64,000 bases of DNA from a virus. This document shows, piece after piece, positions 1,888-60,633 of this stretch. The stretch lies in the IMG/VR virus record IMGVR_UViG_3300045988_151578. One strand, written 5' to 3'. The notes beneath the pieces were generated by a model, which made no database searches, was not told the origin of the DNA, and saw only the letters and a program-made list of their open reading frames with translations. A program made the position numbers and the translations under genes. Position 1 is the stretch's first letter, and every line of letters starts with the position of its first letter.

Positions 1888-1902
1888 ATATAACCGTATT
1901 TA

Positions 1903-1924
1903 AGGGTGAGGATATCCTCACCCT
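1903..1924 (-). other. Perfect 22-nt palindrome (hairpin) between the TS-like gene stop and the polymerase start
   Basis: AGGGTGAGGAT|ATCCTCACCCT read directly. No U-tract follows on the minus strand, so this is more likely an attenuator or processing hairpin than a strong terminator. Confidence 0.4.
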
Positions 1925-1930
1925 ATGTTT

Positions 1931-2707: not shown

Positions 2708-2747
2708 AGTTTTAATTATTTATTGTTAATCTATAGCAAACGGTCTA

Positions 2748-3683: not shown

Positions 3684-3684
3684 A

Positions 3685-4533: not shown

Positions 4534-4535
4534 AA

Positions 4536-5312
4536 TTATAATTTTTCAGTTGAAATACCAGATCCCATACCATTAGACCCTCTATCACTACCATTAGATA
4601 ACTTATCATAAGCTTCATCGGTAGTTTCAAGTAATACGCTTTTGATATATGGTGTATGTAAGAATTGTATCAACCCCTTATTATTTGAATAAGTAGCCAT
4701 ATCCAAAGTTACAGATTTATCCCCTAAGTTAGCTAAGCCTATATGTATTTCACCAGTATAATCTGCATCTACTACTTCAGCAGTAAATATCAAGCCATTA
4801 TTAGTAGCCATACCAGATTTATTCTTAGCCAATAGACAAGTACCTTTATCTACTATCCATACCCTTATACCTGAAGGAATAGAAACTCTTCCGTTTGGTT
4901 TTATAACTATACTATCTATCTCTCCCAATAGATTAGTATTAAACAAACAGCGATGATATTTAGTTATATCAGAGGGTTTTAACAGTGGCATAAAGAAATC
5001 TATACCAGCATCATTGTTACAAGCTCTTCTTGGACATTTAACTTTCCTTAATCGAGTAAAGTAAATCAAATCTGATTCTACTAAATCCTCTACATCATCA
5101 TGAAGGTGAATTTTATTATTTCTCATAGTTTTCTTATCTTTATTTATTATTTCTAAACTACCATCTCCAACAAAATCAAGTCTACTCATAAATTCCTCTT
5201 TTCTTTTGGCTCTTTTAGCTTGATTTTCTTTAGAAATAGATTCGATATCTCTATAAAAACTGTAAAGCTTAAATTTAAAATTTGGCTTTTTATTTCTTTT
5301 ATGATTTACCAT
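4536..5312 (-). CDS. dut: Trimeric dUTPase with an N-terminal basic extension of about 60-100 aa
   Basis: All five dUTPase motifs are present in order: NDAGIDFFMP, KNKSGMA, AEVVDADYTGEIHIG, GLIQFL and SDRGSNGMGSG. The start could instead be an internal Met (MSRLDF or MRNNKI). Confidence 0.85.
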   Translation of the reverse strand: MVNHKRNKKPNFKFKLYSFYRDIESISKENQAKRAKRKEEFMSRLDFVGDGSLEIINKDKKTMRNNKIHLHDDVEDLVESDLIYFTRLRKVKCPRRACNNDAGIDFFMPLLKPSDITKYHRCLFNTNLLGEIDSIVIKPNGRVSIPSGIRVWIVDKGTCLLAKNKSGMATNNGLIFTAEVVDADYTGEIHIGLANLGDKSVTLDMATYSNNKGLIQFLHTPYIKSVLLETTDEAYDKLSNGSDRGSNGMGSGISTEKL

Positions 5313-5706
5313 ACATCTCCCTATAGATTTTCCTTACATCCTTAGAAGGTATTTCGAATTTCTCGGAGCATTTCTTTACTATATCTCTTCGAGTATATTC
5401 ACCCTTCCTCTTTAATCTACGGATATATTTCTTTAATCCTTGAACATCTATAAGAGTATCTAAGTCCTTGTAGTGATTTTTGCTTTCTAATTCTTTTCGG
5501 GTTATATTTAAGTTTTGAGACATCTTGAAAGCACATAATTCAGAATCACCACATATTCTACACTCAGAAGTACTTAAATCATAATTCTTACCAAAGCATG
5601 GATCTCCATTAGAACCTATAAACATAAAAGATATAGGTTCTAATGGATCCTGCTTAGTAAGATCTAACGTTTTTTTCTTTTTATTGATCTTACATATAGA
5701 GCTCAT
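5299..5706 (-). CDS. Hypothetical protein (Cys-containing N-half, basic C-half)
   Basis: ORF in track. It shares strand and packing with its neighbours and overlaps dut by 14 nt. No recognisable motif. Confidence 0.55.
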   Translation of the reverse strand: MSSICKINKKKKTLDLTKQDPLEPISFMFIGSNGDPCFGKNYDLSTSECRICGDSELCAFKMSQNLNITRKELESKNHYKDLDTLIDVQGLKKYIRRLKRKGEYTRRDIVKKCSEKFEIPSKDVRKIYREMYGKS

Positions 5707-5716
5707 AAGTTACACT

Positions 5717-6223
5717 TTAACAATAACTATATTGATACAATACGTGAACAATTCCAGACCACATACCATTTTCTTTTGCTACTTCTGAATAGTATGATGA
5801 ATCAGCCAATTCTTGAGGTATGCCGTATATAGTGTATAGCTGATTTTTCAGCTTAGCATCTATCAACTGGTTCTTAATACGAATAAGATCCTGAAGATTG
5901 GTCAAATAAAGAGTTAAACTCAATTGACTGTAGATTATACTAAAACGATAAACTGTAACCGGTCCCATCTTATTCTCCATGATGTTAGTTACAAATTTAT
6001 AATCCGGATCAATAAATATATTATTGCATATATCTATCTTTGGAGCCTCTTCTCTGGGTTTAATCACTTCTTCATCTTTAATATGGTTATCATCTGTAGC
6101 CATAAGAGTTTCTCCACAATTTTTACAGATAATCTTTACTTCCTTATCTGAAGGATTAATGTTAACCATGTTTTCAGTACCGCATTTTGGGCACTTAAAA
6201 GCTTCTTTTTTAAATCTGCTCAT
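5717..6223 (-). CDS. Hypothetical protein with N-terminal zinc ribbon
   Basis: CPKCG then CKNCG about 17 aa later. The track start at 6229 is a TTG; the first ATG is at 6223-6221. Confidence 0.6.
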   Translation of the reverse strand: MSRFKKEAFKCPKCGTENMVNINPSDKEVKIICKNCGETLMATDDNHIKDEEVIKPREEAPKIDICNNIFIDPDYKFVTNIMENKMGPVTVYRFSIIYSQLSLTLYLTNLQDLIRIKNQLIDAKLKNQLYTIYGIPQELADSSYYSEVAKENGMWSGIVHVLYQYSYC

Positions 6224-6292
6224 ATTCAAAGTATTTTTAGTTATTATTTAACATAATATAATAGGTCGAAAGTAATATTTAACGTACTGGTA

Positions 6293-6799
6293 TTATTCTG
6301 CAGTAATATGATTAATCAGCTCTGATATAAGCTTGTAGTCTTTCTCTCGATGATAAGCAAGTTTCTTTGAAATCATATTCTCTAGATTTGCAAAAGGATA
6401 AGCAAGGGTTCCATTTTCAAAATCCAATCTACTGTAGCTACTTCTTATGATATCAGAATTATCATGGGGATCCACTATGATAAGATTAATGATTACTCCT
6501 TTGTAATAGAAAGCAACATTATAGGTGTTCTTATAAGAGGGATCCATTTTAATATTGCTAGCATCAACCAAAGTTTGAATGGTAGATCTTATGGATAAGA
6601 ATTCAGGTTTATTAATAAGGATATCTACATCTCCCACCAAGTATCTATGCTTTTCAGCAAATTTAGGGAATTGTTGGTATAAAGCAACTCTGCCAGTAAT
6701 AGCAGTTTGTTCTGCAATGCTGTTCTTTATTAAAACATCAGCATAAAAGCTTTCGATAGCTTTGATATACTGTTCCTTAGTAAAACTTTTGTTAAGCAT
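6293..6799 (-). CDS. Minimal nucleotidyltransferase-fold protein (MNT/AbiEii-like)
   Basis: ITGRVALYQQ...HRYLVGDVDILI has the G-[SR] ... D-x-D pattern of Pol-beta-type NTases. A later acidic IIVDPHD and a C-terminal KKLAYHREKDYKLISEL resemble the R-x-KD-x-x-D/L tail of MNT-type proteins. It is the first gene after an early promoter. Confidence 0.45.
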   Translation of the reverse strand: MLNKSFTKEQYIKAIESFYADVLIKNSIAEQTAITGRVALYQQFPKFAEKHRYLVGDVDILINKPEFLSIRSTIQTLVDASNIKMDPSYKNTYNVAFYYKGVIINLIIVDPHDNSDIIRSSYSRLDFENGTLAYPFANLENMISKKLAYHREKDYKLISELINHITAE

Positions 6800-6837
6800 A
6801 ATTTTATAATTTTAAAGTGAAACAATTTATTTATATG

Positions 6838-6869
6838 CAAATATAATATATTTATTTTATATATGCAAA
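6838..6869 (-). promoter_or_regulatory. Early promoter, Bacteroidota sigma-A type (-33 TTTG / -7 TATATTTG)
   Basis: The minus strand reads TTTG (6869-6866), 20 nt, then TATATTTG (6845-6838). It sits in a block conserved with six other copies, and a 28-nt leader identical to the 59.96 kb copy follows. Confidence 0.7.
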
Positions 6870-6963
6870 TTTCTATTTATAATAAGCTGAGTTAAGTACT
6901 TATTGTTGTGGATTAGATCTTATCTTTTAGACCTCCTTATTTTTGGGATTTATAGGTAGTGCC

Positions 6964-6991
6964 TATCTTCAGTTCCCAGGAACTGAAGATA
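6964..6991 (-). terminator. 13-bp perfect hairpin downstream of the helicase gene
   Basis: TATCTTCAGTTCC-CA-GGAACTGAAGATA read directly. It lies 22 nt after the stop at 7013. No clear U-tract. Confidence 0.45.
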
Positions 6992-7012
6992 TGACATCAT
7001 AGTACTTATGAT

Positions 7013-8493: not shown

Positions 8494-9330
8494 TTATTTA
8501 ATTTTATCCCATAAACTACCTTCACCCCCCTCTTCTTCATCTGATTCGGATTCTTTACCCATAAATTTATATAGGTACTTATTATATCTTGCTATAGATT
8601 TATCATTAGTTAGTGAAGAAAGTTCTGGTATCCCATTACACCAAGACAAACCTTCAAATTGAGCCGTGATATAATCTGGATAATTGGGTAACCAATCCCT
8701 ATCTTTCAAGAAATGATATAACTGAATAAAGTATTGATATTTATCCATATCTTTCTCAAAAGATTCTAATATGCCCGTTTTATCTGCAATCTTCTTCACA
8801 TAATAATCGTGCATATCTTTTATTATCTTCTTATCTTTTGAGGATAATTCCATATATTCCTTTTGAGCTACATAAGTTTCGGTTATAACCTCTTGCATAG
8901 ATATAAGTCTTTGAACTAAATTACGGGCATTATTCATTTTAGATATGCCTATTTTTATGTACTTTATAAACCCTTCCCGGGTTTCTAATTGGAAATCCTT
9001 ACAGAAGATATTACATATCTGAGCTAACTTTTTGCAATTAGTCCATTCCCTTTGTTGTGTTTCATTTATTTTCCTTACTCCCCTATGTTTTAATTTTATA
9101 CGGGTAGCATATATAATATCAGCTACCAAATAGGCATCTCCCGTATCTGCTAGTAATATGTTGTTAACTTTTTTATCAATTTGTTTACTACTAACTAAAA
9201 TACTTCTAGAATTTAAAGCCGTTTTCTTAGCATAAGCCAAAAAATCATCTACGGATACATCAACTCCAAACCTATTAAAAAGGGATTTTAGTTGAGTACG
9301 AGTAATGTGAATTGAAGGTTCTCTTTTCAT
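8494..9330 (-). CDS. Hypothetical replication-module protein with acidic C-terminal tail
   Basis: It lies between the helicase and primase genes. The C-terminus is SESDEEEGGEGSLWDKIK. No recognisable catalytic motif. Confidence 0.55.
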   Translation of the reverse strand: MKREPSIHITRTQLKSLFNRFGVDVSVDDFLAYAKKTALNSRSILVSSKQIDKKVNNILLADTGDAYLVADIIYATRIKLKHRGVRKINETQQREWTNCKKLAQICNIFCKDFQLETREGFIKYIKIGISKMNNARNLVQRLISMQEVITETYVAQKEYMELSSKDKKIIKDMHDYYVKKIADKTGILESFEKDMDKYQYFIQLYHFLKDRDWLPNYPDYITAQFEGLSWCNGIPELSSLTNDKSIARYNKYLYKFMGKESESDEEEGGEGSLWDKIK

Positions 9331-12048: not shown

Positions 12049-12080
12049 TTTGCATATATAAAATAAATATTATATATTTG
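12049..12080 (+). promoter_or_regulatory. Early promoter, Bacteroidota sigma-A type
   Basis: TTTG (12049-12052), 20 nt, then TATATTTG (12073-12080). It lies 28 nt upstream of the ATG at 12108 in the same conserved cassette as the other copies. Confidence 0.7.
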
Positions 12081-49684: not shown

Positions 49685-49765
49685 CTGAGCTATTTTTATA
49701 AAAATGTCTGTATTTATTTGCATAATAAAAATAAATGTATTAATTTTGCACATATAAATAATTAA
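49685..49765 (+). repeat. Promoter cassette copy, inverted repeat partner of 59991..60072
   Basis: The reverse complement differs from 59991..60072 by one T indel and one G/T mismatch over about 82 nt (aligned by hand). Confidence 0.85.
49717..49748 (+). promoter_or_regulatory. Early promoter, Bacteroidota sigma-A type
   Basis: TTTG (49717-49720), 20 nt, then TAATTTTG (49741-49748). The ATG at 49777 follows. Confidence 0.7.
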
Positions 49766-49776
49766 ATCAAAAATTT

Positions 49777-50172
49777 ATGAAAAAAGAATTTATTTTAAAA
49801 GTTGGTTCAGAGGTATTATACTATGATACCTGGTTTAATATCACAAAACACAAGGTTATTGATATAACCAATGACATTGCAAAACTTGATAATCAAGTAA
49901 AATGCCATACTAAACTTAATAAATCGGAAGTTTATCCAAGATTTGATCACAAATCAGGTATAGTTATGCCAATAACTGAAAAAAATGAGTTACTTTATAA
50001 TCTTAATCAGGATTTACAGGATAAACTCATCAAAACTTTTCAACTTTCAGACAAATTAAGAGCTATAAAACACCGATTATTAGATAATCCAGATGATGAA
50101 ACTCTTAAAATGACTAGTAAATTGGTAAAATGCTTAGATAAAACCTTAAAAATAATCGAAAATATACAATAA
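49777..50172 (+). CDS. Hypothetical protein
   Basis: First ORF after the plus-strand early promoter. No motif. Confidence 0.55.
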   Translation: MKKEFILKVGSEVLYYDTWFNITKHKVIDITNDIAKLDNQVKCHTKLNKSEVYPRFDHKSGIVMPITEKNELLYNLNQDLQDKLIKTFQLSDKLRAIKHRLLDNPDDETLKMTSKLVKCLDKTLKIIENIQ

Positions 50173-50173
50173 T

Positions 50174-50362
50174 ATGAGCTCAACTTGGGATATACTTGGT
50201 ATTATTTACTTAATTTGCCTAATACCGGCAATTTTGATCACAATAGTTATAAAAAATAGGATCAACATAAAGAGTACCTTATTCATATTTGGTACAGTTT
50301 GGTTAATATTACCCATGTTTCCTATATGGTATTTGATTAAAAAGTTTCAAAATAACGAATAA
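50174..50362 (+). CDS. Small two-TM membrane protein (holin candidate)
   Basis: 62 aa with two hydrophobic helices (ILGIIYLICLIPAILITIVI and LFIFGTVWLILPMFPIWYLI) and a charged C-terminus. Confidence 0.5.
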   Translation: MSSTWDILGIIYLICLIPAILITIVIKNRINIKSTLFIFGTVWLILPMFPIWYLIKKFQNNE

Positions 50363-50364
50363 TT

Positions 50365-50601
50365 ATGGATATATTTGGTCACTTTAATACTGATGGAGAA
50401 TTAAAAGGGTTCTCGGCTAACATTGCACCTATATTGGGTGCATTGTTAGTAGTAGTTTTAACCTTGGTAGGTTTATTCGTTGTAGTAGTATTTCCATTTG
50501 TGGGATGGTTATCTCCCTGGGTTTTTAAGAAAACTTACTTAAAAGTAATGTTTACTATAGCTTGGTTAATGAGTTTAATATCATTTTTCACTTATTTTTA
50601 A
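50365..50601 (+). CDS. Small membrane protein (holin/antiholin candidate)
   Basis: 78 aa with hydrophobic helices IAPILGALLVVVLTLVGLFVVVVFPFVGWL and VMFTIAWLMSLISFFTYF. Confidence 0.5.
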   Translation: MDIFGHFNTDGELKGFSANIAPILGALLVVVLTLVGLFVVVVFPFVGWLSPWVFKKTYLKVMFTIAWLMSLISFFTYF

Positions 50602-50678
50602 TTATGGAAGATCAAGAGTTAGAAGAAGTAGTATATTTGCCTGATTGGGCAGTTATAGAGTAATAGGAGGATTTTGTT

Positions 50679-51152
50679 ATGCAAGTATTTATACCTTATG
50701 CACAACCAATAGATGTTGCACAAACTCTATGGAATGATCAAAAACGTTATAATAAACAGATCATAGAATGTATTCAGATACTAAGAGCTATGGATGGACA
50801 TACAGCTTGGTCTAATCATCCTGTAGTTAAGATGTATAAAAATAACCGTGACTGGTTAGTATGTTATGCTAAATGTCTTAGTAGTTATCGTCTATTTAAG
50901 GAAACTGGAGATAAGAAGTATATAGGTGAAGCTAATGCTTGGAATATTAATGCTGATAGTTGTAGACCTGACTTTATAAAGAATAGCTTTATAAATAAGG
51001 ACGAGATACTTATTCAGCATAGAAAGAGACTTTATACAAAAGCTCCAGAATTATATCCTCAGTTTATTAAGTATGGTACTAGTGATATAAATTATTACTT
51101 CGTAGATGGTAAAATATTAAAATACAGAAATGGTAAACTCATAGAAGATTGA
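50679..51152 (+). CDS. Pyr_excise-like protein (pyrimidine-dimer DNA glycosylase family resemblance)
   Basis: L-x-NDQKRYNKQIIECIQIL ... AWSNHPVVKMY resembles the LD-x-KRL-x-KQR-x-E-x-x-QIL ... NHP signature as I remember it. It is preceded by a perfect AGGAGG 8 nt upstream of the ATG. Confidence 0.4.
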   Translation: MQVFIPYAQPIDVAQTLWNDQKRYNKQIIECIQILRAMDGHTAWSNHPVVKMYKNNRDWLVCYAKCLSSYRLFKETGDKKYIGEANAWNINADSCRPDFIKNSFINKDEILIQHRKRLYTKAPELYPQFIKYGTSDINYYFVDGKILKYRNGKLIED

Positions 51153-51214
51153 ATCACTAACGAACATAGTAGATAGTGTTCATATATAAATTAAACTTTA
51201 AAATTATAAATATT

Positions 51215-51397
51215 ATGGATAAAGAACAGATCACATTAAACCAATTCAAAGCCTTTAAAAGATTAAGGGGTAGAGGCATTATAAACATGAATGACATAGT
51301 TACTGGAGCTAGATTATGTATGATTACAGAAGAAGCATATGAAACTATTATGTGGAACTACGGATATTTAGAGGAGAAATTTAAAAATAAAATGTAG
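51215..51397 (+). CDS. Small hypothetical protein
   Basis: The track ORF starts at a GTG (51176). The first ATG at 51215 gives a 60-aa product, MDKEQITLNQFKAFKRL... Confidence 0.45.
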   Translation: MDKEQITLNQFKAFKRLRGRGIINMNDIVTGARLCMITEEAYETIMWNYGYLEEKFKNKM

Positions 51398-51399
51398 TT

Positions 51400-51678
51400 A
51401 TGGCAAAGAAAATTATTAAAGAGGGCATTGTTCCAAAATATATGGGAAAATGCCCATTATGTGGTACCGAATTTACTTTTGAACATCAAGATATAAAAAG
51501 TAAAACAGAAATGAGGATAGCTGAGAATCCTAATATAAATATCATATCCTCATGTGATCCATTCGTAAAAATAGATTTTGTTACTTGTCCAAAATGTTAT
51601 ACTCCTATAAAGATGGATAATCCCGGGATAAAAAGGGTATACGATCAAATAGAGGGTGAAACAAAAGAAAACATATAA
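51400..51678 (+). CDS. Small zinc-ribbon protein
   Basis: CPLCGTEF ... CPKCYTP. Confidence 0.5.
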   Translation: MAKKIIKEGIVPKYMGKCPLCGTEFTFEHQDIKSKTEMRIAENPNINIISSCDPFVKIDFVTCPKCYTPIKMDNPGIKRVYDQIEGETKENI

Positions 51679-51697
51679 AATTATAAATGTTAACGGT

Positions 51698-52162
51698 ATG
51701 ATAAAATCAATGTTATTAGTAGTAATCCTGGTATTTATACTGGGATTACTAGTTTATATAAGTCCAACTATATGGGTTTATTTGCGTATGACATATCTAA
51801 GAATAAAATTATATCTTACTCGCAATAGATATTTATGTCTTAGATTATTTTTCACTAGAGATTACCTAATTTATTTAAAAGTGTTACATAATATGCACAT
51901 TCTTAAATTTATAGGTAAAGCTCCTATTAAAATACGTACTAATAATGGAGAAACCCTTTTTATGGTTAAAGTATATACAGATGAAAAGTATACATTATTG
52001 ATTAATCCTCAAATAGATGGTGAATCCCTATTATTGGATAAACCCGCAAAAATAGATAAGGGTGGTGTAATAACTGTGGATGGTTCTGTTAAGTGTACCA
52101 TAAACAAGGTATCATTTCCAAGAGAAGCTAAGAAGTTGTATGATAAATATATAACAGCATAG
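51698..52162 (+). CDS. Membrane-anchored hypothetical protein
   Basis: The track start 51656 is GTG. The ATG at 51698 gives MIKSMLLVVILVFILGLLVYI (TM helix). Confidence 0.45.
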   Translation: MIKSMLLVVILVFILGLLVYISPTIWVYLRMTYLRIKLYLTRNRYLCLRLFFTRDYLIYLKVLHNMHILKFIGKAPIKIRTNNGETLFMVKVYTDEKYTLLINPQIDGESLLLDKPAKIDKGGVITVDGSVKCTINKVSFPREAKKLYDKYITA

Positions 52163-52164
52163 AT

Positions 52165-52377
52165 ATGAAAAACAAAGTTAGTAAACCAGCTAAGGCATTA
52201 TTTACCATAGGTGCCATAATAGCTATTGTTAGTGCTACAATATTTTTTAAATCTTATAAAGGTTGTACTGAAGAGATACCCTCTTATATGTACCCTTTTA
52301 TTGAGGAATGTACCAGACATGAAATTAAGGGAGAAATAGAGAAGGAAGAGGATTATATATTAGAAGAAGAACCATAA
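52165..52377 (+). CDS. Small single-TM protein with acidic tail
   Basis: KALFTIGAIIAIVSATIFF is a TM helix. The C-terminus is EKEEDYILEEEP. Confidence 0.45.
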   Translation: MKNKVSKPAKALFTIGAIIAIVSATIFFKSYKGCTEEIPSYMYPFIEECTRHEIKGEIEKEEDYILEEEP

Positions 52378-52390
52378 AAATATTAGTGAT

Positions 52391-53041
52391 ATGTTAGGAA
52401 GTCATAATTCATTCAGTTACCTCAAGCCAGTTAAATGGTGGATGAGGTTAATTAATTTTGCAGGGAAATGCCAATCTCTGGATGTTTACGATCAGGTATT
52501 CTTAAATGATGTAAAATTCTTTGATGTAAGGCTTAGATGGGATAATAAGTCCCAGAAGTTTTATTTGGCTCATGGAATAATAAGGTATTCCTGGGATATA
52601 TCCCCTTTAGTGAGTTTTTTGAATTGGTTATATACCGATGAGTTGGATGATTTAATAAATATGGGTGGTAAGAAATTTAAGTGTAGCTATTCTCCTATAT
52701 TTAGGTTTGTTCTAGAGTATAATAATCCAATAAATGATAGAACTATTATTGATAATTTTAAAGCATTACTTGATACTTTAATATTTATGTACGATGGCAT
52801 TAATATCCTGGGAGGATATACTAAATGGGATGAGCAATGTATTTATACGGGGATAGGTGATAAGGATGTTACATTAAATCATGGGTATTCTTCTGTATTG
52901 GGATGGAAGAGATATTTCCTTATACCCTGGGTTTATGCTTGGTATTATAATCATAAGAATGATAGGTATATAAGGTATTTGGTTAATAAGAATAAGGAGG
53001 TTATTCTAGTGGATTTTGTGGATATGGTAAATACTATATAA
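52391..53041 (+). CDS. PLC-like phosphodiesterase (PI-PLC X-domain fold)
   Basis: GSHNS (cf. G-T-H-D-S), CQSLDVYDQVFLNDVKFFDVRLR (cf. T-Q ... Q ... G-x-R-x-F-D-I-R) and YLAHGII (cf. L-H-H-G) occur in the order and spacing of bacterial PI-PLC catalytic motifs. Confidence 0.65.
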   Translation: MLGSHNSFSYLKPVKWWMRLINFAGKCQSLDVYDQVFLNDVKFFDVRLRWDNKSQKFYLAHGIIRYSWDISPLVSFLNWLYTDELDDLINMGGKKFKCSYSPIFRFVLEYNNPINDRTIIDNFKALLDTLIFMYDGINILGGYTKWDEQCIYTGIGDKDVTLNHGYSSVLGWKRYFLIPWVYAWYYNHKNDRYIRYLVNKNKEVILVDFVDMVNTI

Positions 53042-53246
53042 TAATGGAACTCATAGATTTTGTTTTAAGGTGTAAAGTTGTTTTGTTTTGATTCCTTGGG
53101 GTATTGGGATTTATTCCTGGTACCCCTTTATTGTGTGTGTTGTGTTTTGTGTGGTATATATTTTCGAGGAACCCCTTTAATACGTACGGGAAATGGCCAA
53201 GTAGTTTCAGGGGAGCACGGTTGCAGTGATATTAAAAAAGTAAAAA

Positions 53247-53288
53247 TAAAAATAGGGGACAAATATTTTAATTTGTCCCCTATTTTTA
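53247..53288. terminator. Bidirectional terminator between the convergent plus and minus clusters
   Basis: A stem of 14 bp or more, AATAGGGGACAAAT / ATTTGTCCCCTATT, with a 6-nt loop. A-runs and T-runs flank both sides. Confidence 0.8.
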
Positions 53289-53918
53289 TTTTGCGTATAT
53301 AGTTAAATAAATTTCATCTTTACTTACATCATTATAATCATAAAGAATATTTGATATATTATTTAAGAAATTTAAAATTTCTTTAATTTGCATATCAAAC
53401 AAAATATTATTTTGTTTAAAAAAAGTTATTTCTAAAAGTTCTTCATTATCTGGCACAATATCTAAAAATGTTTCATCATCAGTTAAGTCTGAATTAAATT
53501 CAATGTGTTTGATACTTTTTGTAAGCATTGATTTAACTAAAAGATTTATCAAACCTTTATATTTTGTTAAATAGTTCGGTTTATTTGTATAACTATTTGT
53601 TAAACTTACTGAAAATTGATAATACTCAAAACTATCTTTTGTTAAATAGTCAATAGTGCAAACTTGATATTGTGAGTATTTGAAAAATAAATTCAATATC
53701 TTATTAAAATATTGAATGTTATATTCAACACTATTAGTTATCATATAATTTGCCCAAAACGTTTCAAAAAAATATGTGTCTGTTTTTAAACTTAAATTTA
53801 AGTTTAAACCAAATAGACCAAACAAATTATTCGTAAACAATTCAGTAACTAATTTGCTTAAATTAGTACTATATGTTTCAACATATTTTATCAAAAAATC
53901 TTTGTTTAACTTGTTCAT
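53286..53918 (-). CDS. Hypothetical protein, low-GC cassette gene 3
   Basis: 210 aa, rich in Asn/Phe/Leu/Tyr/Lys. It overlaps the upstream ORF by 4 nt. No motif. Confidence 0.55.
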   Translation of the reverse strand: MNKLNKDFLIKYVETYSTNLSKLVTELFTNNLFGLFGLNLNLSLKTDTYFFETFWANYMITNSVEYNIQYFNKILNLFFKYSQYQVCTIDYLTKDSFEYYQFSVSLTNSYTNKPNYLTKYKGLINLLVKSMLTKSIKHIEFNSDLTDDETFLDIVPDNEELLEITFFKQNNILFDMQIKEILNFLNNISNILYDYNDVSKDEIYLTIYAK

Positions 53919-54169
53919 AACTTTACAATATAAATGTTATTTGAATTTTTTTCATTGCTTATTACTTTTGGTCTGATATTCAAATTATAGATAAATAAAT
54001 TTTGAATATTAACTATATCGTTATTATCGTTTGGTATCTTTATACAAAAAGTTTTGATAAAACTTTTTGTACTAAACCAAAACAATTTTAATGTTATTTT
54101 TTTATGTGTAGGTTTTTTAAAACCTACACACTTACATTTTGCAACAAATTCTAAATTGTAATGTTTCAT
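53915..54169 (-). CDS. Hypothetical basic protein, low-GC cassette gene 2
   Basis: 84 aa. It fits exactly between neighbours (2-nt gap upstream, 4-nt overlap downstream). The alternative-frame ORF 54132..54368 was rejected. Confidence 0.45.
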   Translation of the reverse strand: MKHYNLEFVAKCKCVGFKKPTHKKITLKLFWFSTKSFIKTFCIKIPNDNNDIVNIQNLFIYNLNIRPKVISNEKNSNNIYIVKL

Positions 54170-54171
54170 AA

Positions 54172-54561
54172 CTATTTATTTTTGTTTGTACGTTTTGTGG
54201 TTTGTTGCTTTTGCTCCTGATTGTTTGATTTTTGCAAATAATCTTTGCAAATTTGCAAACAATTTGCATACGTATCACGTTTTTCATTTCGTGTGTTTTC
54301 ACTGCAAACACTTGAAACTGAATAATCATTAATTGCATAAACTTGCTGATAAAAATCAATAAATTCATTTATGCTTTTTTCAGTTTTTGACAAAACTACC
54401 TCACTTGCAAAAGCAAATGCAATTTTGCGTAATTTTCTACGTGCTTTTTTTAAATCGTTTTCGTTTAGACCTGTAAAAAGCTCTTTTTTGTAGATTTCAC
54501 GTGCAGAATTAATTTCTACATTTACATTTAACTTACTGAAAATTTCATTTAATGTTGCCAT
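54172..54561 (-). CDS. Hypothetical helical protein with basic tail, low-GC cassette gene 1
   Basis: 129 aa, first gene after promoter 54610..54641. The C-terminus is QKQQTTKRTNKNK. Confidence 0.55.
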   Translation of the reverse strand: MATLNEIFSKLNVNVEINSAREIYKKELFTGLNENDLKKARRKLRKIAFAFASEVVLSKTEKSINEFIDFYQQVYAINDYSVSSVCSENTRNEKRDTYANCLQICKDYLQKSNNQEQKQQTTKRTNKNK

Positions 54562-54609
54562 AATCTTAAAGTTTTAATTAGTTAGACGTTTTATTTAAAT
54601 TTTCTGTTG

Positions 54610-54641
54610 CAAAGATAAAGAGTTTTTTCTAAACTTACAAA
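54610..54641 (-). promoter_or_regulatory. Early promoter, Bacteroidota sigma-A type (diverged copy)
   Basis: The minus strand reads TTTG (54641-54638), 20 nt, then TATCTTTG (54617-54610). The 23-nt leader TTTGCAACAGAAAATTTAAATAA is shared with the 56.86 kb copy. Confidence 0.6.
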
Positions 54642-54697
54642 CATTTTTCAAGAAAAATTTTTATTTTATTTGTATTTTTGATTTAAATCAAAAAATT

Positions 54698-54706
54698 GTG
54701 CCGGAT
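54698..54706 (+). repeat. GTGCCGGAT direct repeat, copy 1
   Basis: AAAAATTGTGCCGGATATTT compared with AAAAATCGTGCCGGATTTTT 211 bp downstream, inside a very AT-rich stretch. Confidence 0.6.
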
Positions 54707-54908
54707 ATTTATTTTTAACAAAAAATATTTTGATATTTGAAAAATTATTTTATTCACGTACATTATATATTAAATTAATAGTCCTTAAATGTTCATATCG
54801 TGTTTTTAAATGTTAACAGCCCAAACGGACTACATTTTTTAAATTTAACAAAAACTCTAAAAATTTTTAATTTTAATATTTTTGTGAAAATTTTTAAAAA
54901 TAAAAATC

Positions 54909-54917
54909 GTGCCGGAT
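54909..54917 (+). repeat. GTGCCGGAT direct repeat, copy 2
   Basis: See copy 1. Confidence 0.6.
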
Positions 54918-55004
54918 TTTTTAATATTTTCGTTTGTGTGTTTAAAATTTTCACATATAATTTAAATTTGTGGCTATAGGGATCACTGAGCCCTAATAAC
55001 TATT

Positions 55005-55038
55005 GGGGCCTTGTCTCTATAGGGGCTTTATCTCTATA
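55005..55038 (+). repeat. Tandem 17-bp iteron-like repeat x2
   Basis: GGGGCCTTGTCTCTATA (55005-55021) and GGGGCTTTATCTCTATA (55022-55038) read directly. Confidence 0.8.
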
Positions 55039-55116
55039 GTGATAATATTAAAGCTTATATGTATATATGATCTAAGGCCATATCTCATATCCTAATATAT
55101 CCTGATAAGAGCTATA

Positions 55117-55141
55117 GGGGCTTCAATACTTTATCTCTATA
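55117..55141 (+). repeat. Third iteron-like copy with an 8-nt insertion
   Basis: GGGGCTTcaatacTTTATCTCTATA. Confidence 0.65.
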
Positions 55142-55158
55142 AGGTTAAGGCTTAAGGT

Positions 55159-55191
55159 ATGTAACAAAGTTAGCGAATGTAACAAAGTTAG
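55159..55191 (+). repeat. Perfect 15-bp direct repeat with 18-bp period
   Basis: ATGTAACAAAGTTAG-CGA-ATGTAACAAAGTTAG. Confidence 0.8.
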
Positions 55192-55197
55192 GCTCAC

Positions 55198-55232
55198 AAA
55201 AAAAGATCCCGAGTATCACTACTGAGGATCTT
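55198..55232 (-). terminator. Rho-independent terminator (minus strand)
   Basis: Stem AAGATCC..GAGTA-TCAC-TACT..GGATCTT (7 + 4 bp with a 2-nt internal mismatch). The preceding A7 on the plus strand gives a U-run after the hairpin on the minus strand. Confidence 0.6.
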
Positions 55233-55403
55233 CGACAATTATGAATTTTAAAAGAATTTTGAAAATTTAATGAAAATAGGTTTAGAGATATATCCCATAG
55301 GTCCAACCCTGGCGTTTGTATAACTAATTAAAAACTTTGTTGTGAATGTGATAAATTTCCTTGTTATCGATTTATATTATATAGTTTATCTTAGAGAGTA
55401 TGA

Positions 55404-55424
55404 GGAAAGCTTATTAGGCTTTCC
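55404..55424 (-). terminator. Short hairpin immediately after the stop of 55435..55809
   Basis: GGAAAGC-TTATTAG-GCTTTCC. No U-tract. Confidence 0.3.
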
Positions 55425-55434
55425 CCAATTTTGA

Positions 55435-55809
55435 TTATAGGGCTTCTCTATTGAATAATTCAACTAGAGTTAGTTTGCAAGTTTCTCTTTTAATGAATTC
55501 CTGTTCCCGAGTTATTAAGGATGGCTGATCTATGATTTCCTCTAAGAATATTTCCCAGGCTTCTTCTATGTAATTTTTATTTGGGTTTTGGTTATATTCT
55601 AGAGAGACCGTTAGTTGTAAGAATTGATAACCTTTCCATTCAGATTCTTTGGCATCTTCTATGATAACCTTGAATAATTTACTGAATGGGTGAGAAGAGA
55701 ATAGATGATCTCTTTCGAATTTGGTTTTTATTTGGTTTATCAGATGCTGGGTTTCCTGGGTTAGAGAATTAAAATCCTCATTCGATATGTTATTTGTGAA
55801 AGTATCCAT
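55435..55809 (-). CDS. Hypothetical acidic early protein
   Basis: ORF in track. No motif. Confidence 0.55.
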   Translation of the reverse strand: MDTFTNNISNEDFNSLTQETQHLINQIKTKFERDHLFSSHPFSKLFKVIIEDAKESEWKGYQFLQLTVSLEYNQNPNKNYIEEAWEIFLEEIIDQPSLITREQEFIKRETCKLTLVELFNREAL

Positions 55810-55821
55810 AGTGATGTGAAT

Positions 55822-56277
55822 TTAGAAGTTATTTTTGTTAAATGTATCGGTAAATATCATAAGAGTATAGAATTGATTATTCGAATCAGTAAGATAGGTT
55901 ATCCCATCTATGTGATTATTCTCGGATTCCATCTCATCCTCTTCGAAAAGCTTTTCGATAGAATCTATTAGGGATTTACCATGATCCTTATCCTTAGTGG
56001 GATAACTTATTGTGAAGGTTACCATAAGTTTATCCTCGGTTTCCCTAACCTTATTAAGGGTTAGTTTGTCGCAATATGAGGTTATAGGATGATCTCCATA
56101 GGAACAGTCATCCAAGATATTCATCTCTATCTCCTTAAGCATCATCCTTGCCTTCATGGATATGTCCAGATTCATATTAGGCATCTTCTTTCGAAAGTCC
56201 TTGATAGCATCTAATGGAGTTTCATATAGATCATTGATTACTCTATCGATTGAATTAATGAAGTTTCTAGTGTTCAT
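55822..56277 (-). CDS. Hypothetical acidic early protein
   Basis: ORF in track. No motif. Confidence 0.55.
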   Translation of the reverse strand: MNTRNFINSIDRVINDLYETPLDAIKDFRKKMPNMNLDISMKARMMLKEIEMNILDDCSYGDHPITSYCDKLTLNKVRETEDKLMVTFTISYPTKDKDHGKSLIDSIEKLFEEDEMESENNHIDGITYLTDSNNQFYTLMIFTDTFNKNNF

Positions 56278-56374
56278 ATTTATTGTTAATTAAAGATTGA
56301 TAATATGATTAATGCTAAGTATACTATGACGAATATTAGGATTACGAATAGTGTATCCTTTATGGTTGATTTTT

Positions 56375-56815
56375 TCATTTGAGATTGATTATTATGGTTA
56401 TTGTTATTTGTGTGTTATGTATATTCCCGGTTCTGTGTAATCTGATAAGATTATTATCCTTATCGCAGAATACGATGTGATATTTATCGAATTCCCGGGA
56501 TTGATAGGTAGTGGTTTCGAGGAAGTTAACTAGGATATCGCATACCAGATTCCAAATGAGATTATTATTGAATCTAGCCTGGGATGCAGCTTCTTCGTTT
56601 CCCTTAAGATTTCGATTTAATAAAGATATGGATAATACTTCCGTATGGAATGGTAGTGTAACTGCATTGATTAAATCCTGGTAATTCTCTTCGTGTTTGA
56701 AAGTGTATAAGCTATCTTTTTTGATTTCGATACATTTCTCTTCTACCTTTGAAAGGATTGCATTAAGATCGAGATCCTTGAAGGTGATTGGTTTGATGGT
56801 TTTTGATTTTTTCAT
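56375..56815 (-). CDS. Hypothetical early protein
   Basis: First ORF after promoter 56863..56894. No motif. Confidence 0.55.
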   Translation of the reverse strand: MKKSKTIKPITFKDLDLNAILSKVEEKCIEIKKDSLYTFKHEENYQDLINAVTLPFHTEVLSISLLNRNLKGNEEAASQARFNNNLIWNLVCDILVNFLETTTYQSREFDKYHIVFCDKDNNLIRLHRTGNIHNTQITITIIINLK

Positions 56816-56862
56816 TTTACTACATTTTTAATTGTTATACATATTATTTAAATTTTCTGTTG

Positions 56863-56894
56863 CAAAATTAATGCAAATAATTCATATATGCAAA
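56863..56894 (-). promoter_or_regulatory. Early promoter, Bacteroidota sigma-A type
   Basis: The minus strand reads TTTG (56894-56891), 20 nt, then TAATTTTG (56870-56863). Confidence 0.65.
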
Positions 56895-57067
56895 TATTTT
56901 TGCAACAAATTTATAATTTCAGCTCGTTTGAAGATAGTTTATGATAGTAGATGAGTAAGATTTGCTCTTTTAGCATATCCCGGGATAATTCTAGAGGAGT
57001 ATTTTTAATTTTAGATAAGATTAATAAGTTAATAAGTGGGATATTTTTCTAGATATGGGTATAGTAA

Positions 57068-57326
57068 GGGGCCTTGTGTCTTTATCTCCACGAGGATTTA
57101 ATATAAAATAAAGGCCTATAAACGTGCCTATGCTTTAAAGTTTGGGGCATATTAGGGGCCTTAATTCCTTATCCTGAATGGGCCTAAAATAATTAATATT
57201 GGGGCCTTAGTTCATTAATAATTTAATAGATTGGGGCTTTATTTCCTTTAGGTTGGGGTACCACAAATCCTTAAATCCCAGTAGCTTTATATATAATATA
57301 TACTATAGTAAAGTTGGGGATTGGGG
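57068..57326 (+). repeat. Cluster of eight GGGG-containing iteron-like motifs (TTGGGGCYTTA-type)
   Basis: GGGG runs start at 57068, 57144, 57155, 57201, 57233, 57255, 57316 and 57323. Examples are GGGGCCTTGTGTCTTTATCTCCA, GGGGCCTTAATTCCTTATCC, GGGGCCTTAGTTCATT and GGGGCTTTATTTCCTTTAGG. No ORF of 60 aa or more lies here. Confidence 0.75.
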
Positions 57327-57378
57327 ATAAGGATTTGGTTCTGAGATAGCGAATTTAGGATCTGGAATTGGATATCAC

Positions 57379-57422
57379 AAAAAAGAGTCCAGCTATACAT
57401 GTACATATTGTAGTATAGCTGG
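57379..57422 (-). terminator. Rho-independent terminator (minus strand)
   Basis: 10-bp stem CCAGCTATAC / GTATAGCTGG with a 14-nt loop. A6 on the plus strand at 57379-57384 gives a U6 run 4 nt after the hairpin on the minus strand. Confidence 0.7.
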
Positions 57423-57537
57423 AAAGCTCTTGTGTTTAGTACCCCCCTTTATCCTATCCCCAAGTTGGGATTTTAGGATTTTTTTCGCCCCACCCCCTGA
57501 AGGTACCTATAGTATGTTTATTTATTAGTATTATATA

Positions 57538-57801
57538 TTATTTGAATATAAGGATGGTATCGGATTTTATTCGAATGTATCGATCTTTTATACTATCTGA
57601 GTTTAAGTATATGTATGTATCTATTACTTTTACTGTATCAGATATTTTTGATTTATCTTGATACCTTATATTCTTTTTTGGTTTTTCTTTGTTTGGGGTG
57701 GGTACTATACTGGGTAGGAATGGTAGGATTATTAAATATATCGATAGGATTAAATCGATTAATAGTAATTTTCCCAGGGGTTCCTTTAATAGTCTTCTCA
57801 T
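57538..57801 (-). CDS. Small membrane protein
   Basis: TM helix LLLIDLILSIYLIILPFLPSIV. 4-nt overlap with the upstream ORF. Confidence 0.5.
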   Translation of the reverse strand: MRRLLKEPLGKLLLIDLILSIYLIILPFLPSIVPTPNKEKPKKNIRYQDKSKISDTVKVIDTYIYLNSDSIKDRYIRIKSDTILIFK

Positions 57802-57986
57802 TCTGATAACTGATTTAATAGGTTTTTGTTTTGTTTGGAGAGGTACTTTCTGATTACATCCTTAATCTCCTGGGATGTATTCTGATTGAGGTATAGGATT
57901 ATCACTTCTCTTTCCGATAGTGTGTAGAGATATTCTATCTGTTCTTCCTCGGTTGAGAGGTTTTGGATTATTTCTAATGGGATCAT
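57798..57986 (-). CDS. Small acidic hypothetical protein
   Basis: 62 aa with 4-nt overlaps on both sides. Confidence 0.5.
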   Translation of the reverse strand: MIPLEIIQNLSTEEEQIEYLYTLSEREVIILYLNQNTSQEIKDVIRKYLSKQNKNLLNQLSE

Positions 57987-58207
57987 AATGATAAGGAGTT
58001 GATGAAGAATTCTACGTAGTCGTTATCTATACCTAAATTATGGCAAGCCTCTTCGAAATCCTCATATCTTAGATCTCCTACATCTCTTAGATCATTCAAG
58101 TTATCTATTTCGTTGTTGATGTAGTCGGATGCTTGTTTGGGAGAGCAATGGCATGAATCACATACCTGATTTATTATATTGTCTCTATCGTTCATAGTTA
58201 TAGCCAT
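57983..58207 (-). CDS. Small strongly acidic hypothetical protein
   Basis: 74 aa, Asp/Glu/Asn-rich (DNLNDLRDVGDLRYEDFEEACHNLGIDNDYVEFF), with C-x-x-C-x-C near the N-terminus. Confidence 0.5.
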   Translation of the reverse strand: MAITMNDRDNIINQVCDSCHCSPKQASDYINNEIDNLNDLRDVGDLRYEDFEEACHNLGIDNDYVEFFINSLSL

Positions 58208-59990: not shown

Positions 59991-60072
59991 TTAATTATTT
60001 TATATGTGCAAAATTAATACATTTATTTTTATTATGCAAATAAATACATACATTTTTATAAAAATAGCTCAG
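59991..60072 (-). repeat. Promoter cassette copy: inverted partner of 49685..49765 and direct partner of 63946..64000
   Basis: Hand alignment. About 82 nt are near-identical to the inverted 49.7 kb copy. 59969-60023 is identical to 63946-64000. Confidence 0.85.
60009..60040 (-). promoter_or_regulatory. Early promoter, Bacteroidota sigma-A type
   Basis: The minus strand reads TTTG (60040-60037), 20 nt, then TAATTTTG (60016-60009). Confidence 0.7.
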
Positions 60073-60249: not shown

Positions 60250-60633
60250 TTACTTTATGATCAAGTCATCTATAGGCACTTTCAATAATTCTGATATCTC
60301 CATCAATAAACCTCTACCGGGTTGAACACTATTAGATGTTATAGAGTATATACTTTTAGGATTACCTAACTTAAGTACTTCTCCTAGAACTTTTACTCTT
60401 ATGCCCTTAGATTTACATACCTCTCCTATACGATTTTTAACAAACCCATATTTCTTTTTACGTATAGCACTGCCTACATAATTAGAAGCAGCACCTTTAC
60501 CTCTAAAATGCTTTATACAATGTTTTTGATTAGTAGATAATTTTCTAGCCCATACATTTGCACTTCCATGTATTAGTCCATCTCTAACTTCAAAATCATC
60601 GTAATCCTTTAAATATAAATACGTCTTACCCAT
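60250..60633 (-). CDS. Putative DNA-binding regulator with C-terminal XRE-like helix-turn-helix
   Basis: IGEVCKSKGIRVKVLGEVLKLGNPKSIYSITSNSVQPGRGLLMEISELLKVPIDDLI has the HTH_XRE layout. Confidence 0.5.
   Translation of the reverse strand: MGKTYLYLKDYDDFEVRDGLIHGSANVWARKLSTNQKHCIKHFRGKGAASNYVGSAIRKKKYGFVKNRIGEVCKSKGIRVKVLGEVLKLGNPKSIYSITSNSVQPGRGLLMEISELLKVPIDDLIIK

What the first reader, a model, noticed from the sequence alone, without database searches (positions are those of the whole stretch)
54562..55434. Non-coding island A (about 870 bp): iteron-like GGGGCYTT..TATCTCTATA repeats beside an extremely AT-rich tract, resembling a replication origin
In an otherwise tightly packed genome, this stretch contains no ORF of 60 aa or more. 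It contains:
- a tandem pair, GGGGCCTTGTCTCTATA / GGGGCTTTATCTCTATA (55005-55038);
- a third copy at 55117-55141, plus degenerate copies (CTATAGGGATCAC at 54974, AAGGCCATATCTCATAT at 55074);
- a perfect 15-bp direct repeat with 18-bp period (55159-55191);
- about 350 bp of very AT-rich DNA (54620-54960) on the other side of the array.

Iterons next to an AT-rich unwinding element is the classical origin architecture. Alternatives are a regulator-binding array upstream of promoter 54610..54641, or a plus-strand non-coding RNA.
Basis: partly seen in the sequence, partly recalled or inferred. Interest (0 to 1): 0.65.

Follow-up and report, generated by a model that had tools for sequence, protein, structure and literature searches.

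The report
Conserved repeat-rich non-coding island in gut phage
An 870-bp gene-free stretch of an uncultured gut Bacteroidota phage holds a terminator, strongly conserved short repeats, an AT-rich tract and a strong promoter; it may be the replication origin, but sequence analysis alone cannot show that.

Summary
GGGGC occurs 9 times in 64 kb; 8 of these lie on the + strand inside this island and a second island (56816-57537).

In the direction of the flanking minus-strand genes, the island reads:
- an intrinsic terminator;
- two perfect 18-bp tandem repeats;
- about 190 bp of GGGGCYTT/CTATAG units;
- about 330 bp of AT-rich spacer;
- a Bacteroidetes-type promoter for the next gene.

The same gene-free island sits at the same place in 13 close relatives, more than 150 distant relatives (about 85-kb gut phages, probably 'Flandersviridae') and phage MT121964. 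The core is 88-100% conserved, against 70-74% at synonymous sites.

Ruled out or unsupported: a coding region, an Rfam family, a tRNA, an invertible segment and a structured RNA (no covariation on either strand). One 19-bp site is kept between clades but on opposite strands, which points to a protein-read DNA site.

An origin of replication is my best single guess (about 0.35). Against it: no initiator gene, no DnaA-box cluster, no GC-skew switch and irregular repeat spacing. A transcription-control array or a non-coding RNA gene remain live rivals.

The parts
55401..55427 (-). Hairpin directly after the stop codon of gene 55435..55809, without a U-tract
   Evidence: Folds at -14 kcal/mol, z = -4.4. 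The stem is conserved in window-clade relatives.
55233..55400 (-). Poorly conserved spacer; also a mosaic junction, because the gene upstream differs between relatives
   Evidence: Identity of the window to relatives is 0.65 here and 0.38 in the 3' end of the upstream gene.
55198..55233 (-). Intrinsic terminator of the upstream early operon (stem-loop followed by U7)
   Evidence: Folds at -15 kcal/mol, then UUUUUUU. It is 97-98% conserved in 13 sequences. Island B (57380-57440) and the distant clade have an equivalent hairpin plus T-run at the same place.
55159..55197 (-). Two tandem 18-bp repeats, read in the direction of the genes as (C)CTAACTTTGTTACAT / CGCTAACTTTGTTACAT; they carry the family-wide CGCTAAC motif
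   Evidence: 100% identical in all 13 window-clade sequences. CGCTAACT occurs 218 times in the direction of the genes and once in reverse in the family loci, always at the terminator-side edge of the islands. It occurs nowhere else in the window.
54971..55158 (+). Core of GGGGCYTT-(0/8 nt)-RTCTCTATAG units at 55005, 55022 and 55117, with degenerate copies at 54974 and 55074. It includes the hairpin 54990-55009.
   Evidence: Conservation is 88-95%, against 70-74% at third codon positions of the neighbouring gene. A profile of this core finds island B at 57067-57216 with E = 0.005.
55117..55144 (+). Composite site GGGGCTTCAATACTTTATCTCTATAAGG, one copy of the family-wide site GGGGCCTTAATTCYTTATC
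   Evidence: With 4 or fewer mismatches to the 19-mer, the only window hits are 55117, 57068, 57155 and 57201, all on the + strand. The distant clade keeps one copy with 1 mismatch on the opposite strand relative to the genes. The exact 18-mer occurs only in contigs of this phage family in IMG/VR.
54963..54970 (+). TAAATTTG, a -7-box-like octamer on the strand opposite the genes, at the border between core and AT tract (candidate promoter for a plus-strand transcript)
   Evidence: The distant clade has an invariant TAATTTTG at the equivalent border. In 11 of 13 window-clade sequences a 1-nt insertion alters the box.
54620..54960 (.). AT-rich tract (GC about 0.17) with two copies of AAAAATYGTGCCGGATWTTT at 54682-54721 and 54893-54925
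   Evidence: The two hairpins are weak (-4 and -2.6 kcal/mol; z about 0). 54790-54859 is only 68-74% conserved, whereas 54860-54970 is 91-96% conserved. GTGCCGGAT is absent from the distant clade.
54610..54641 (-). Bacteroidetes-type promoter TTTG-N20-TATCTTTG for gene 54561..54172
   Evidence: One of only 9 full matches in the window, 6 of which lie in intergenic DNA directly upstream of a gene. A 56-nt block around it is 84-86% identical in the distant clade, where it is present in 2-3 tandem copies.
54562..54609 (-). 5' untranslated leader of gene 54561..54172
   Evidence: 23 nt (54591-54613) are identical to 56844-56866 in island B.
56816..57537 (.). Island B, a sister island of the same build (terminator, GGGGCYTT units, promoter)
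   Evidence: It is 92% identical in L001, against about 88% over the surrounding region.

Best explanation
Island A is a composite region between two early operons of a Bacteroidota phage.

Shown:
- Its right end terminates the upstream minus-strand operon.
- Its left end is a strong host-type promoter for the next gene.
- Between them lies a conserved stretch of about 370 bp (54860-55232) that is neither coding nor a structured RNA.

Inferred:
- The conserved stretch is a set of DNA sites read by sequence-specific protein(s): the 18-bp CGCTAAC tandem pair, and the GGGGCYTT...TTATC(TC) units.
- The most likely specific role is the phage's replication origin, or one of two together with island B.
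- In that model an unidentified initiator binds the repeats.
- The adjoining AT-rich tract is then the unwinding element.
- Opening is helped by the negative supercoiling generated behind the strong promoter, which fires away from the tract. That last step is transcriptional activation of an origin, as known for lambda, oriC with gidA, T7 and T4.
For: Function:
- The core is 88-100% conserved in 13 sequences, while synonymous sites next door are 70-74% conserved.
- A gene-free island at the same syntenic place exists in the window clade, in more than 150 loci of the distant clade and in MT121964.

DNA site rather than RNA:
- Variants that would make G.U pairs are symmetric between the strands (18 vs 17, and 27 vs 25), with few compensatory changes and many mismatches.
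- RNAalifold finds little covariation.
- Folding z-scores for island A are only -1.5 and -1.7.
- The 19-mer GGGGCCTTAATTCYTTATC is kept with 1 mismatch between clades, but on opposite strands relative to the genes.

Origin-like features:
- Oriented repeats are confined to the islands.
- They abut the second least stable 300-bp stretch of the window.
- Islands A and B are the only large non-coding stretches found in about 74 of 80 kb.
- The phage carries its own DnaB-type helicase, primase and other replication genes, so it should have its own origin.
- Strong promoter(s) point away from the AT tract in both clades.
Against: - No initiator was found. The genes between and beside the islands encode small, mostly acidic proteins with no Pfam or PHROGs match.
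- The 129-aa downstream protein is modelled as a mainly helical protein (three long helices) with no fold match in the PDB.
- The conserved 278-aa protein of the replication module has no significant match either.
- Repeat spacing is irregular and copy number is low.
- There is no DnaA-box cluster.
- The GC skew changes sign near 50 kb and 58 kb, not at 54.5-55.4 kb.
- The same motifs occur in two islands 2 kb apart.
- The distant clade has only a short AT tract, mostly filled by tandem promoters.
- A conserved block of 370 bp is more than iterons usually need.
Confidence: 0.35

Rival explanations
1. Transcription-control array. In this reading the repeats are binding sites for a phage (or host) regulator. 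The regulator would time the early operons by shutting off or insulating the strong promoters, by reinforcing termination between operons, or by controlling a weak promoter inside the 18-bp repeats.
For: - The island lies exactly between a terminator and a promoter.
- Both islands separate successive early operons.
- Each 18-bp repeat contains an imperfect dyad (TAAC-TTT-GTTA) and, in the window clade, a TAACTTTG octamer that fits the -7 box TAnnTTTG.
- The strand flip of the 19-mer between clades is compatible with protein-read DNA sites.
- The window encodes a weak candidate helix-turn-helix protein at 60250..60633; its only database match is a PHROG 'transcriptional regulator' family at E = 0.0011.
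Against: - The sites lie 330-560 bp upstream of the only canonical promoter, which is far for bacterial operators.
- In the distant clade the octamer reads TAACTTAG, TAACTATG or TAACTAAG, so it is not a conserved -7 box.
- No regulator has been tied to the sites.
Confidence: 0.25
2. A non-coding RNA gene. There are two versions:
- a G-rich plus-strand RNA of about 250 nt, starting near 54977 and running to the 55205-55231 hairpin;
- a C-rich RNA in the direction of the genes, starting at the 18-bp repeats and ending near 54900.
Either would act by base pairing or as a protein sponge rather than through a fixed fold.
For: - -7-like octamers sit on the strand opposite the genes at the border between core and AT tract in both clades.
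- Hairpins flank the core on both sides.
- Composition is strand-asymmetric, and GGGGCCUU is self-complementary only as plus-strand RNA, through G.U pairs. This gives -141.6 kcal/mol on the plus strand against -96.1 on the minus strand for island B.
- A long conserved block suits an RNA gene.
Against: - No Rfam family matches, even at E up to 10.
- There is no covariation and no wobble asymmetry between strands.
- Z-scores are alike on both strands.
- The conserved 19-mer would be sense in one clade and antisense in the other.
- The plus-strand box is altered by a 1-nt insertion in 11 of 13 window-clade sequences.
- The GTGCCGGAT hairpins are too weak to act as terminators.
Confidence: 0.18
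3. A promoter-terminator shuffling cassette of the PeSL type described for T4-like phages. In this reading the island serves mainly as a stretch of homology for recombination that swaps early genes, and its conservation comes from recombination sweeps rather than from an extra function.
For: - Identical or near-identical promoter and leader segments recur at 60040, 56894, 54641, 49717, 12049 and 6869.
- Gene content changes exactly at the island edge: the upstream gene is 124 aa in the window and 147 aa in relatives, and identity drops to 0.38.
- The neighbouring gene carries a 132-aa internal deletion.
- Many metagenome contigs break in this region.
- The concept is described in PMC2839356 and PMC4122927.
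Against: - PeSL elements are about 50-100 bp of promoter plus stem-loop. They do not explain a further 370-bp core that is kept at 88-100% with strictly oriented motifs.
- They also do not explain the conservation of short motifs across clades whose flanks no longer align.
Confidence: 0.1

Closest known systems
Iteron-type phage and plasmid origins: lambda ori, P1 oriR, and SPP1 oriL/oriR (own knowledge)
   Same: - Direct repeats in one orientation lie beside an AT-rich tract.
- The element lies in the early region.
- As in SPP1, two separate loci share the same repeat.
   Different: - Spacing is irregular and copies are few.
- The repeats come in at least two kinds.
- No cognate initiator gene has been identified, and the element is not inside or beside a replication-initiator (rep) gene.
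- There are no DnaA boxes.
Transcription-activated or transcription-primed origins: T7 primary origin (promoters 1.1A/B plus an AT-rich tract), T4 oriF/oriG, lactococcal phage c2 ori, ColE1 (own knowledge)
   Same: - Promoter(s) directly adjoin an AT-rich stretch between early operons.
- G clusters lie on one strand, downstream of a candidate promoter.
   Different: - No transcript has been shown.
- The strong promoter fires away from the repeats.
- The candidate plus-strand promoter is weak and not strictly conserved.
PeSL promoter/stem-loop cassettes of T4-type phages (PMC2839356, PMC4122927)
   Same: - Repeated early promoter and leader segments, with terminators, flank small variable early genes.
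- Mosaic junctions fall at the element's edge.
   Different: The island carries an additional conserved core of about 370 bp and an AT tract of about 330 bp that PeSLs lack.
Bacteroidetes housekeeping promoters, TTTG-N19-21-TAnnTTTG (consensus as used in PMC4747536 and PMC8748976; own knowledge of Bayley et al. 2000)
   Same: 54641-54610 on the minus strand matches both elements at the right spacing, about 50 nt upstream of the start codon.
   Different: None. This part of the island is an ordinary member.

Membership tests
Iteron-containing replication origin | Three or more direct repeats of about 17-22 bp in one orientation, at regular (helical) spacing | tested here: inconclusive
   There are two kinds of oriented repeats, an 18-bp pair and three GGGGCYTT units. 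Spacings are 18, 17 and 95 bp here, and 87, 46 and 32 bp in island B.
Iteron-containing replication origin | Adjacent AT-rich DNA-unwinding element | tested here: met
   54607-54906 has GC 0.17 and is the second least stable 300-bp window of 64 kb. However, neighbouring coding DNA is nearly as AT-rich, and the tract is short in the distant clade.
Iteron-containing replication origin | A cognate initiator (Rep-, O- or DnaA-like) encoded nearby or identifiable in the genome | tested here: not met
   Flanking genes have no Pfam, PHROGs or NCBIfam match. AlphaFold2 models of the 129-aa and 278-aa proteins find no Rep or winged-helix match in the PDB. About 6 kb of the genome was not examined.
Iteron-containing replication origin | Host-factor sites (cluster of DnaA boxes) | tested here: not met
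   TTATCCACA with 1 or fewer mismatches: none in island A. The whole window has 29 against 25 expected.
Iteron-containing replication origin | Compositional-skew switch at the site | tested here: not met
   The GC skew changes sign near 50 kb and 58 kb. Skew in this genome largely follows gene direction, so this test is weak.
Iteron-containing replication origin | Initiation of DNA synthesis at the site, or autonomous or phage-dependent replication of the cloned fragment | not testable with these tools
   Needs marker-frequency analysis, 2D gels or plasmid assays.
Structured non-coding RNA | Base pairs maintained by compensatory changes, with a strand-specific excess of G.U pairs | tested here: not met
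   Diversity within the clades is low, so the power of the test is limited.
Structured non-coding RNA | Match to a described RNA family | tested here: not met
   Rfam 15 at gathering score and at E up to 10, and ARAGORN: nothing relevant.
Bacteroidetes sigma-A promoter | TTTG (-33), 19-21 nt, TAnnTTTG (-7), upstream of a gene | tested here: met
   54641-54610 on the minus strand is TTTG-N20-TATCTTTG, and the start codon is at 54561. It is conserved in the distant clade.
Intrinsic terminator | G+C-containing stem-loop followed by a U run, downstream of a gene | tested here: met
   55233-55198 on the minus strand folds at -15 kcal/mol and is followed by U7. It is 97-98% conserved.
Invertible promoter segment (Bacteroides 'inverton') | Both orientations found among genomes of one lineage | tested here: not met
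   Core orientation is fixed: forward versus reverse counts are 140/0, 219/0, 14/0 and 14/0.
T7/SP6-type single-subunit RNA polymerase promoter | About 17-23 nt of conserved promoter ending in CACTATAG, plus a phage RNA polymerase gene | tested here: not met
   Only the CTATAG core recurs; the sequence upstream differs in every copy. No RNA polymerase gene was seen in the regions annotated.
PeSL cassette | Short repeated module of early promoter plus stem-loop, flanking variable early genes | tested here: met
   This holds for the promoter, leader and terminator parts only. The 370-bp core lies outside the definition.

The most novel reading that the evidence does not exclude
The island could be a transcription-primed origin. 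In that reading a host-polymerase transcript starts at the plus-strand TAAATTTG box (54963-54970) and runs through the GGGGC clusters. There it forms a stable RNA-DNA hybrid that is used to start DNA synthesis, as in ColE1, T4 oriF, or the mitochondrial light-strand promoter with its conserved sequence blocks. The CGCTAAC pair would mark where the hybrid or the fork is processed. It would be the first origin of this type described for a phage of gut Bacteroidota.
Probability: 0.1. Interest if true: 0.7.

Novelty: new member of a known kind. Interest (0 to 1): 0.45.

Why it matters
These phages, and the related 85-kb clade that is probably 'Flandersviridae', are among the commonest viruses of the human gut. 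None is in culture with a worked-out life cycle, and the paper that described the family says nothing about non-coding DNA.

The two islands are the only sizeable non-coding stretches found in the roughly 74 of 80 kb examined. They carry the most conserved DNA seen in the compared loci, so they are the obvious places to look for the origin and for the switches of early transcription.

Defined short sites (the 18-mer, and the 19-28-bp site) give direct handles:
- for DNA pull-downs;
- for building phage-dependent vectors for Bacteroides;
- for recognising this phage family in metagenomes.

Tried and rejected
- **Known RNA families:** Rfam (gathering score and permissive thresholds) and ARAGORN on the window, island B and a distant relative gave nothing.
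- **Coding region under recoded stop codons:** rejected.
- **Structured RNA:** folding z-scores, RNAalifold on 70 sequences and a strand-asymmetry test of G.U-making variants gave no support on either strand.
- **T7/SP6-like promoters:** TCACTATAG at 55034-55042 matches the T7 core. This was rejected because the upstream recognition region is not conserved among copies.
- **Invertible segment:** rejected.
- **Cluster of DnaA boxes:** none.
- **Initiator gene flanked by two iteron arrays, as in P1:** rejected. The three genes between the islands are small and acidic, and one tolerates a 132-aa internal deletion.
- **Downstream 129-aa protein or 278-aa replication-module protein as initiator:** no fold or sequence support.
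- **Inverted repeat 54572-54587 / 55318-55333 as ends of a mobile element:** not conserved in L001.
- **Genome terminus or packaging (pac) site, from clustering of contig ends:** the ends are spread over 5 kb and are better explained by repeated promoters that break assemblies.
- **Host-derived motif:** CGCTAACTWWGKTACAT occurs at or below chance in 596 Gb of prokaryotic genomes.
- **Searches that returned little:**
  - The exact-15-mer scan of IMG/VR returned chance hits only.
  - INPHARED had no nucleotide or protein match to the island or its neighbour.
- **GGCC sites as targets of the phage C5 methyltransferase:** noted but not pursued.

Full report
**What is there**

The window is an AT-rich (about 31% GC) tailed-phage genome.
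- It carries a T4-type large terminase, a baseplate J protein, a tail tape-measure-like protein, a DnaB-type helicase, a Toprim primase, a dUTPase, a thymidylate synthase and a C5 methyltransferase.
- Its nearest GenBank relatives are uncultured gut phages.
- Promoters of the Bacteroidetes type, TTTG-N19-20-TAnnTTTG, lie directly upstream of genes at six places, so the host is a Bacteroidota bacterium.
- Almost all genes are on the minus strand.
- Island A (54562-55434) lies between two minus-strand genes: 55435..55809 upstream and 54561..54172 downstream.

**Check of the observation**

- No ORF reaches 60 aa, and recoding stop codons does not open one.
- Gene callers left the homologous region empty in 11 of 12 fetched window-clade relatives.
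- GGGGCYTT occurs 6 times against 2 expected. GGGGC occurs 9 times, 8 of them in island A or in a second island at 56816-57537, always on the + strand.
- CTATAGGG occurs only in island A.
- The AT tract is the second least stable 300-bp stretch of the window, although the coding DNA to its left is similar.

**Anatomy, read in the direction of the genes (minus strand)**

1. A hairpin without a U run follows the stop codon (55427-55401; -14 kcal/mol).
2. A poorly conserved spacer follows.
3. A good intrinsic terminator lies at 55233-55198 (-15 kcal/mol, U7).
4. Directly after it come two 18-bp tandem repeats carrying CGCTAAC (55197-55159).
5. About 190 bp of units follow which, on the + strand, read GGGGCYTT-(0 or 8 nt)-RTCTCTATAG.
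6. Then comes about 330 bp of AT-rich DNA with two copies of AAAAATYGTGCCGGATWTTT. These are too weak to be terminators (-4 kcal/mol or weaker, z about 0).
7. The promoter is at 54641-54610, followed by a 48-nt leader.

Island B has the same order of parts. A profile of the island-A core finds island B with E = 0.005.

**Relatives**

- The downstream 129-aa protein has 70 homologues at 73-95% identity. I fetched 11 of their loci, plus L001 and L358.
- A distant clade of about 85-87-kb human-gut contigs, at roughly 46% protein identity, gave more than 150 loci. It is probably the proposed 'Flandersviridae'. That attribution rests only on genome size, host phylum and source; the describing paper (PMC8008677) does not mention non-coding islands.
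- In all of these a gene-free gap of 700-870 bp precedes the gene.
- MT121964 (terminase 69% identical) has one syntenic 604-bp island: a terminator-like hairpin, ACTTCGCT..TTAGT, AAGGCC repeats, an AT-rich stretch, then TTTG-N19-TATATTTG. Only positions 1-7000 and 50000-75500 of that record were read.

**Selection**

Across 13 window-clade sequences:

| Region | Conservation |
|---|---|
| 18-bp repeats | 100% |
| Terminator | 97-98% |
| GGGGC/CTATAG core | 88-95% |
| 54860-54970 | 91-96% |
| Downstream gene, third codon positions | 70-74% |
| Downstream gene, second codon positions | 93% |
| 54790-54859 and 55233-55434 | close to the synonymous rate |

So about 370 bp are under purifying selection. 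Parts of the AT tract are constrained at most in composition.

**RNA or DNA?**

- No Rfam family matches.
- Folding z-scores are weak for island A (-1.5 and -1.7). For island B they are similar on both strands (-3.8 and -3.2), which is what DNA-level inverted repeats give.
- In the distant clade (75 and 28 distinct sequences), variants that would make G.U pairs on one strand are as common as those making them on the other (18 vs 17; 27 vs 25). Compensatory changes are rare and mismatches common. RNAalifold agrees.
- The 19-mer GGGGCCTTAATTCYTTATC is found in the window only in the islands, on the + strand. The distant clade keeps it with one mismatch, on the opposite strand relative to the genes.
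- In contrast, the CGCTAAC edge motif keeps its orientation (218 to 1).
- The cores never appear inverted within a clade, so this was an old inversion and not a switch.

A motif that survives inversion relative to every nearby promoter is most simply a protein-read DNA site. The exact 18-mer occurs only in this phage family in IMG/VR, and the CGCTAAC motif is at chance level in prokaryotic genomes.

**Is it the origin?**

For:
- oriented repeats lie beside an unwinding-prone tract;
- the position is conserved;
- only two large non-coding stretches were found in about 74 of 80 kb;
- the phage has its own replication proteins;
- strong promoter(s) fire away from the AT tract, which would load it with negative supercoils. 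This last point is an inference from the twin-domain model and from known transcriptional activation of origins.

Against:
- spacing is irregular and copies are few;
- no initiator was recognised, either among neighbouring genes or in the 278-aa protein of the replication module;
- there are no DnaA boxes;
- the skew changes sign elsewhere;
- the motifs are shared by two islands, although SPP1 also has two origins;
- the AT tract is short in the distant clade.

I put the origin reading at about 0.35. The broader statement, that the core is a protein-read cis-acting DNA element and not an RNA gene, I put at about 0.6.

**Rivals**

- A transcription-control array between early operons (0.25).
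- A poorly structured non-coding RNA on either strand (0.18).
- A PeSL-like recombination cassette with no further function (0.1). The promoter, leader and terminator parts do behave like PeSLs: they are repeated and sit at mosaic junctions (PMC2839356, PMC4122927).

**Verdict**

The origin interpretation is reasonable but unproven, and several defining features of iteron origins were tested and not met. This is a new member of the known kind 'phage non-coding control island, candidate origin', of moderate interest. Its main value is that it points to defined short sites that can be tested directly.

Noticed in passing
window 56816-57537: Island B is a second gene-free island of the same build. 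It has a terminator at 57440-57380 (-24 kcal/mol), four GGGGCYTT units on the + strand, and a promoter at 56894-56863. It is 92% identical in L001, more than the surrounding region.
   Followed up: partly
window 60040-60009 (-), 49717-49748 (+), 6869-6838 (-), 12049-12080 (+): The 32-nt promoter TTTGCATAATAAAAATAAATGTATTAATTTTG is identical at two sites and near-identical at two more. About 80 nt around 60072-59993 also match the relative's copy of the 49.7-kb promoter region at 87.5% (L001 10244-10321). These look like repeated promoter cassettes of the PeSL type.
   Followed up: partly
window 55822-56277 (-): This 151-aa protein is an internally deleted version (residues 39-170 missing) of a 288-aa protein found in most relatives. 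That part of the protein is therefore dispensable.
   Followed up: yes
window 50000-58000: The GC skew is positive on the + strand over the whole stretch, although the genes at 53286-58207 are on the minus strand. Their coding strand is C-rich, unlike the other minus-strand genes of the window.
   Followed up: no
window 54105-54130: A perfect 12-bp-stem palindrome (-16.7 kcal/mol, z = -5.1) lies inside ORF 53915..54169, just after the end of the 129-aa gene. It may be a terminator, which would make that gene monocistronic and would cast doubt on the 84-aa ORF.
   Followed up: partly
L008 4400-4800 and other loci of the distant clade: A 13-nt tandem repeat (AAATATTAAGTGC) has 1-5 copies, and the strong promoter is present as 2-3 tandem copies of about 105-120 bp. 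Both vary between genomes.
   Followed up: partly
window 8494-9330 (-): This conserved 278-aa protein of the replication module has an AlphaFold2 model with pLDDT 76. Twelve of its top 50 Foldseek matches in the PDB are RNA polymerase sigma factors, but all have E above 1 and TM-score below 0.25. This is a lead for a phage sigma-like factor, not evidence.
   Followed up: partly
L360 (MT121964.1) 970-1573: Phage DP SC_6_H4_2017 has a syntenic 604-bp gene-free island. It holds a terminator-like hairpin, AAGGCC repeats and a TTTG-N19-TATATTTG promoter.
   Followed up: partly
window 49777-53041 (+): This is the only multi-gene cluster on the plus strand. It includes small membrane-like proteins and has its own copy of the strong promoter.
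   Followed up: no
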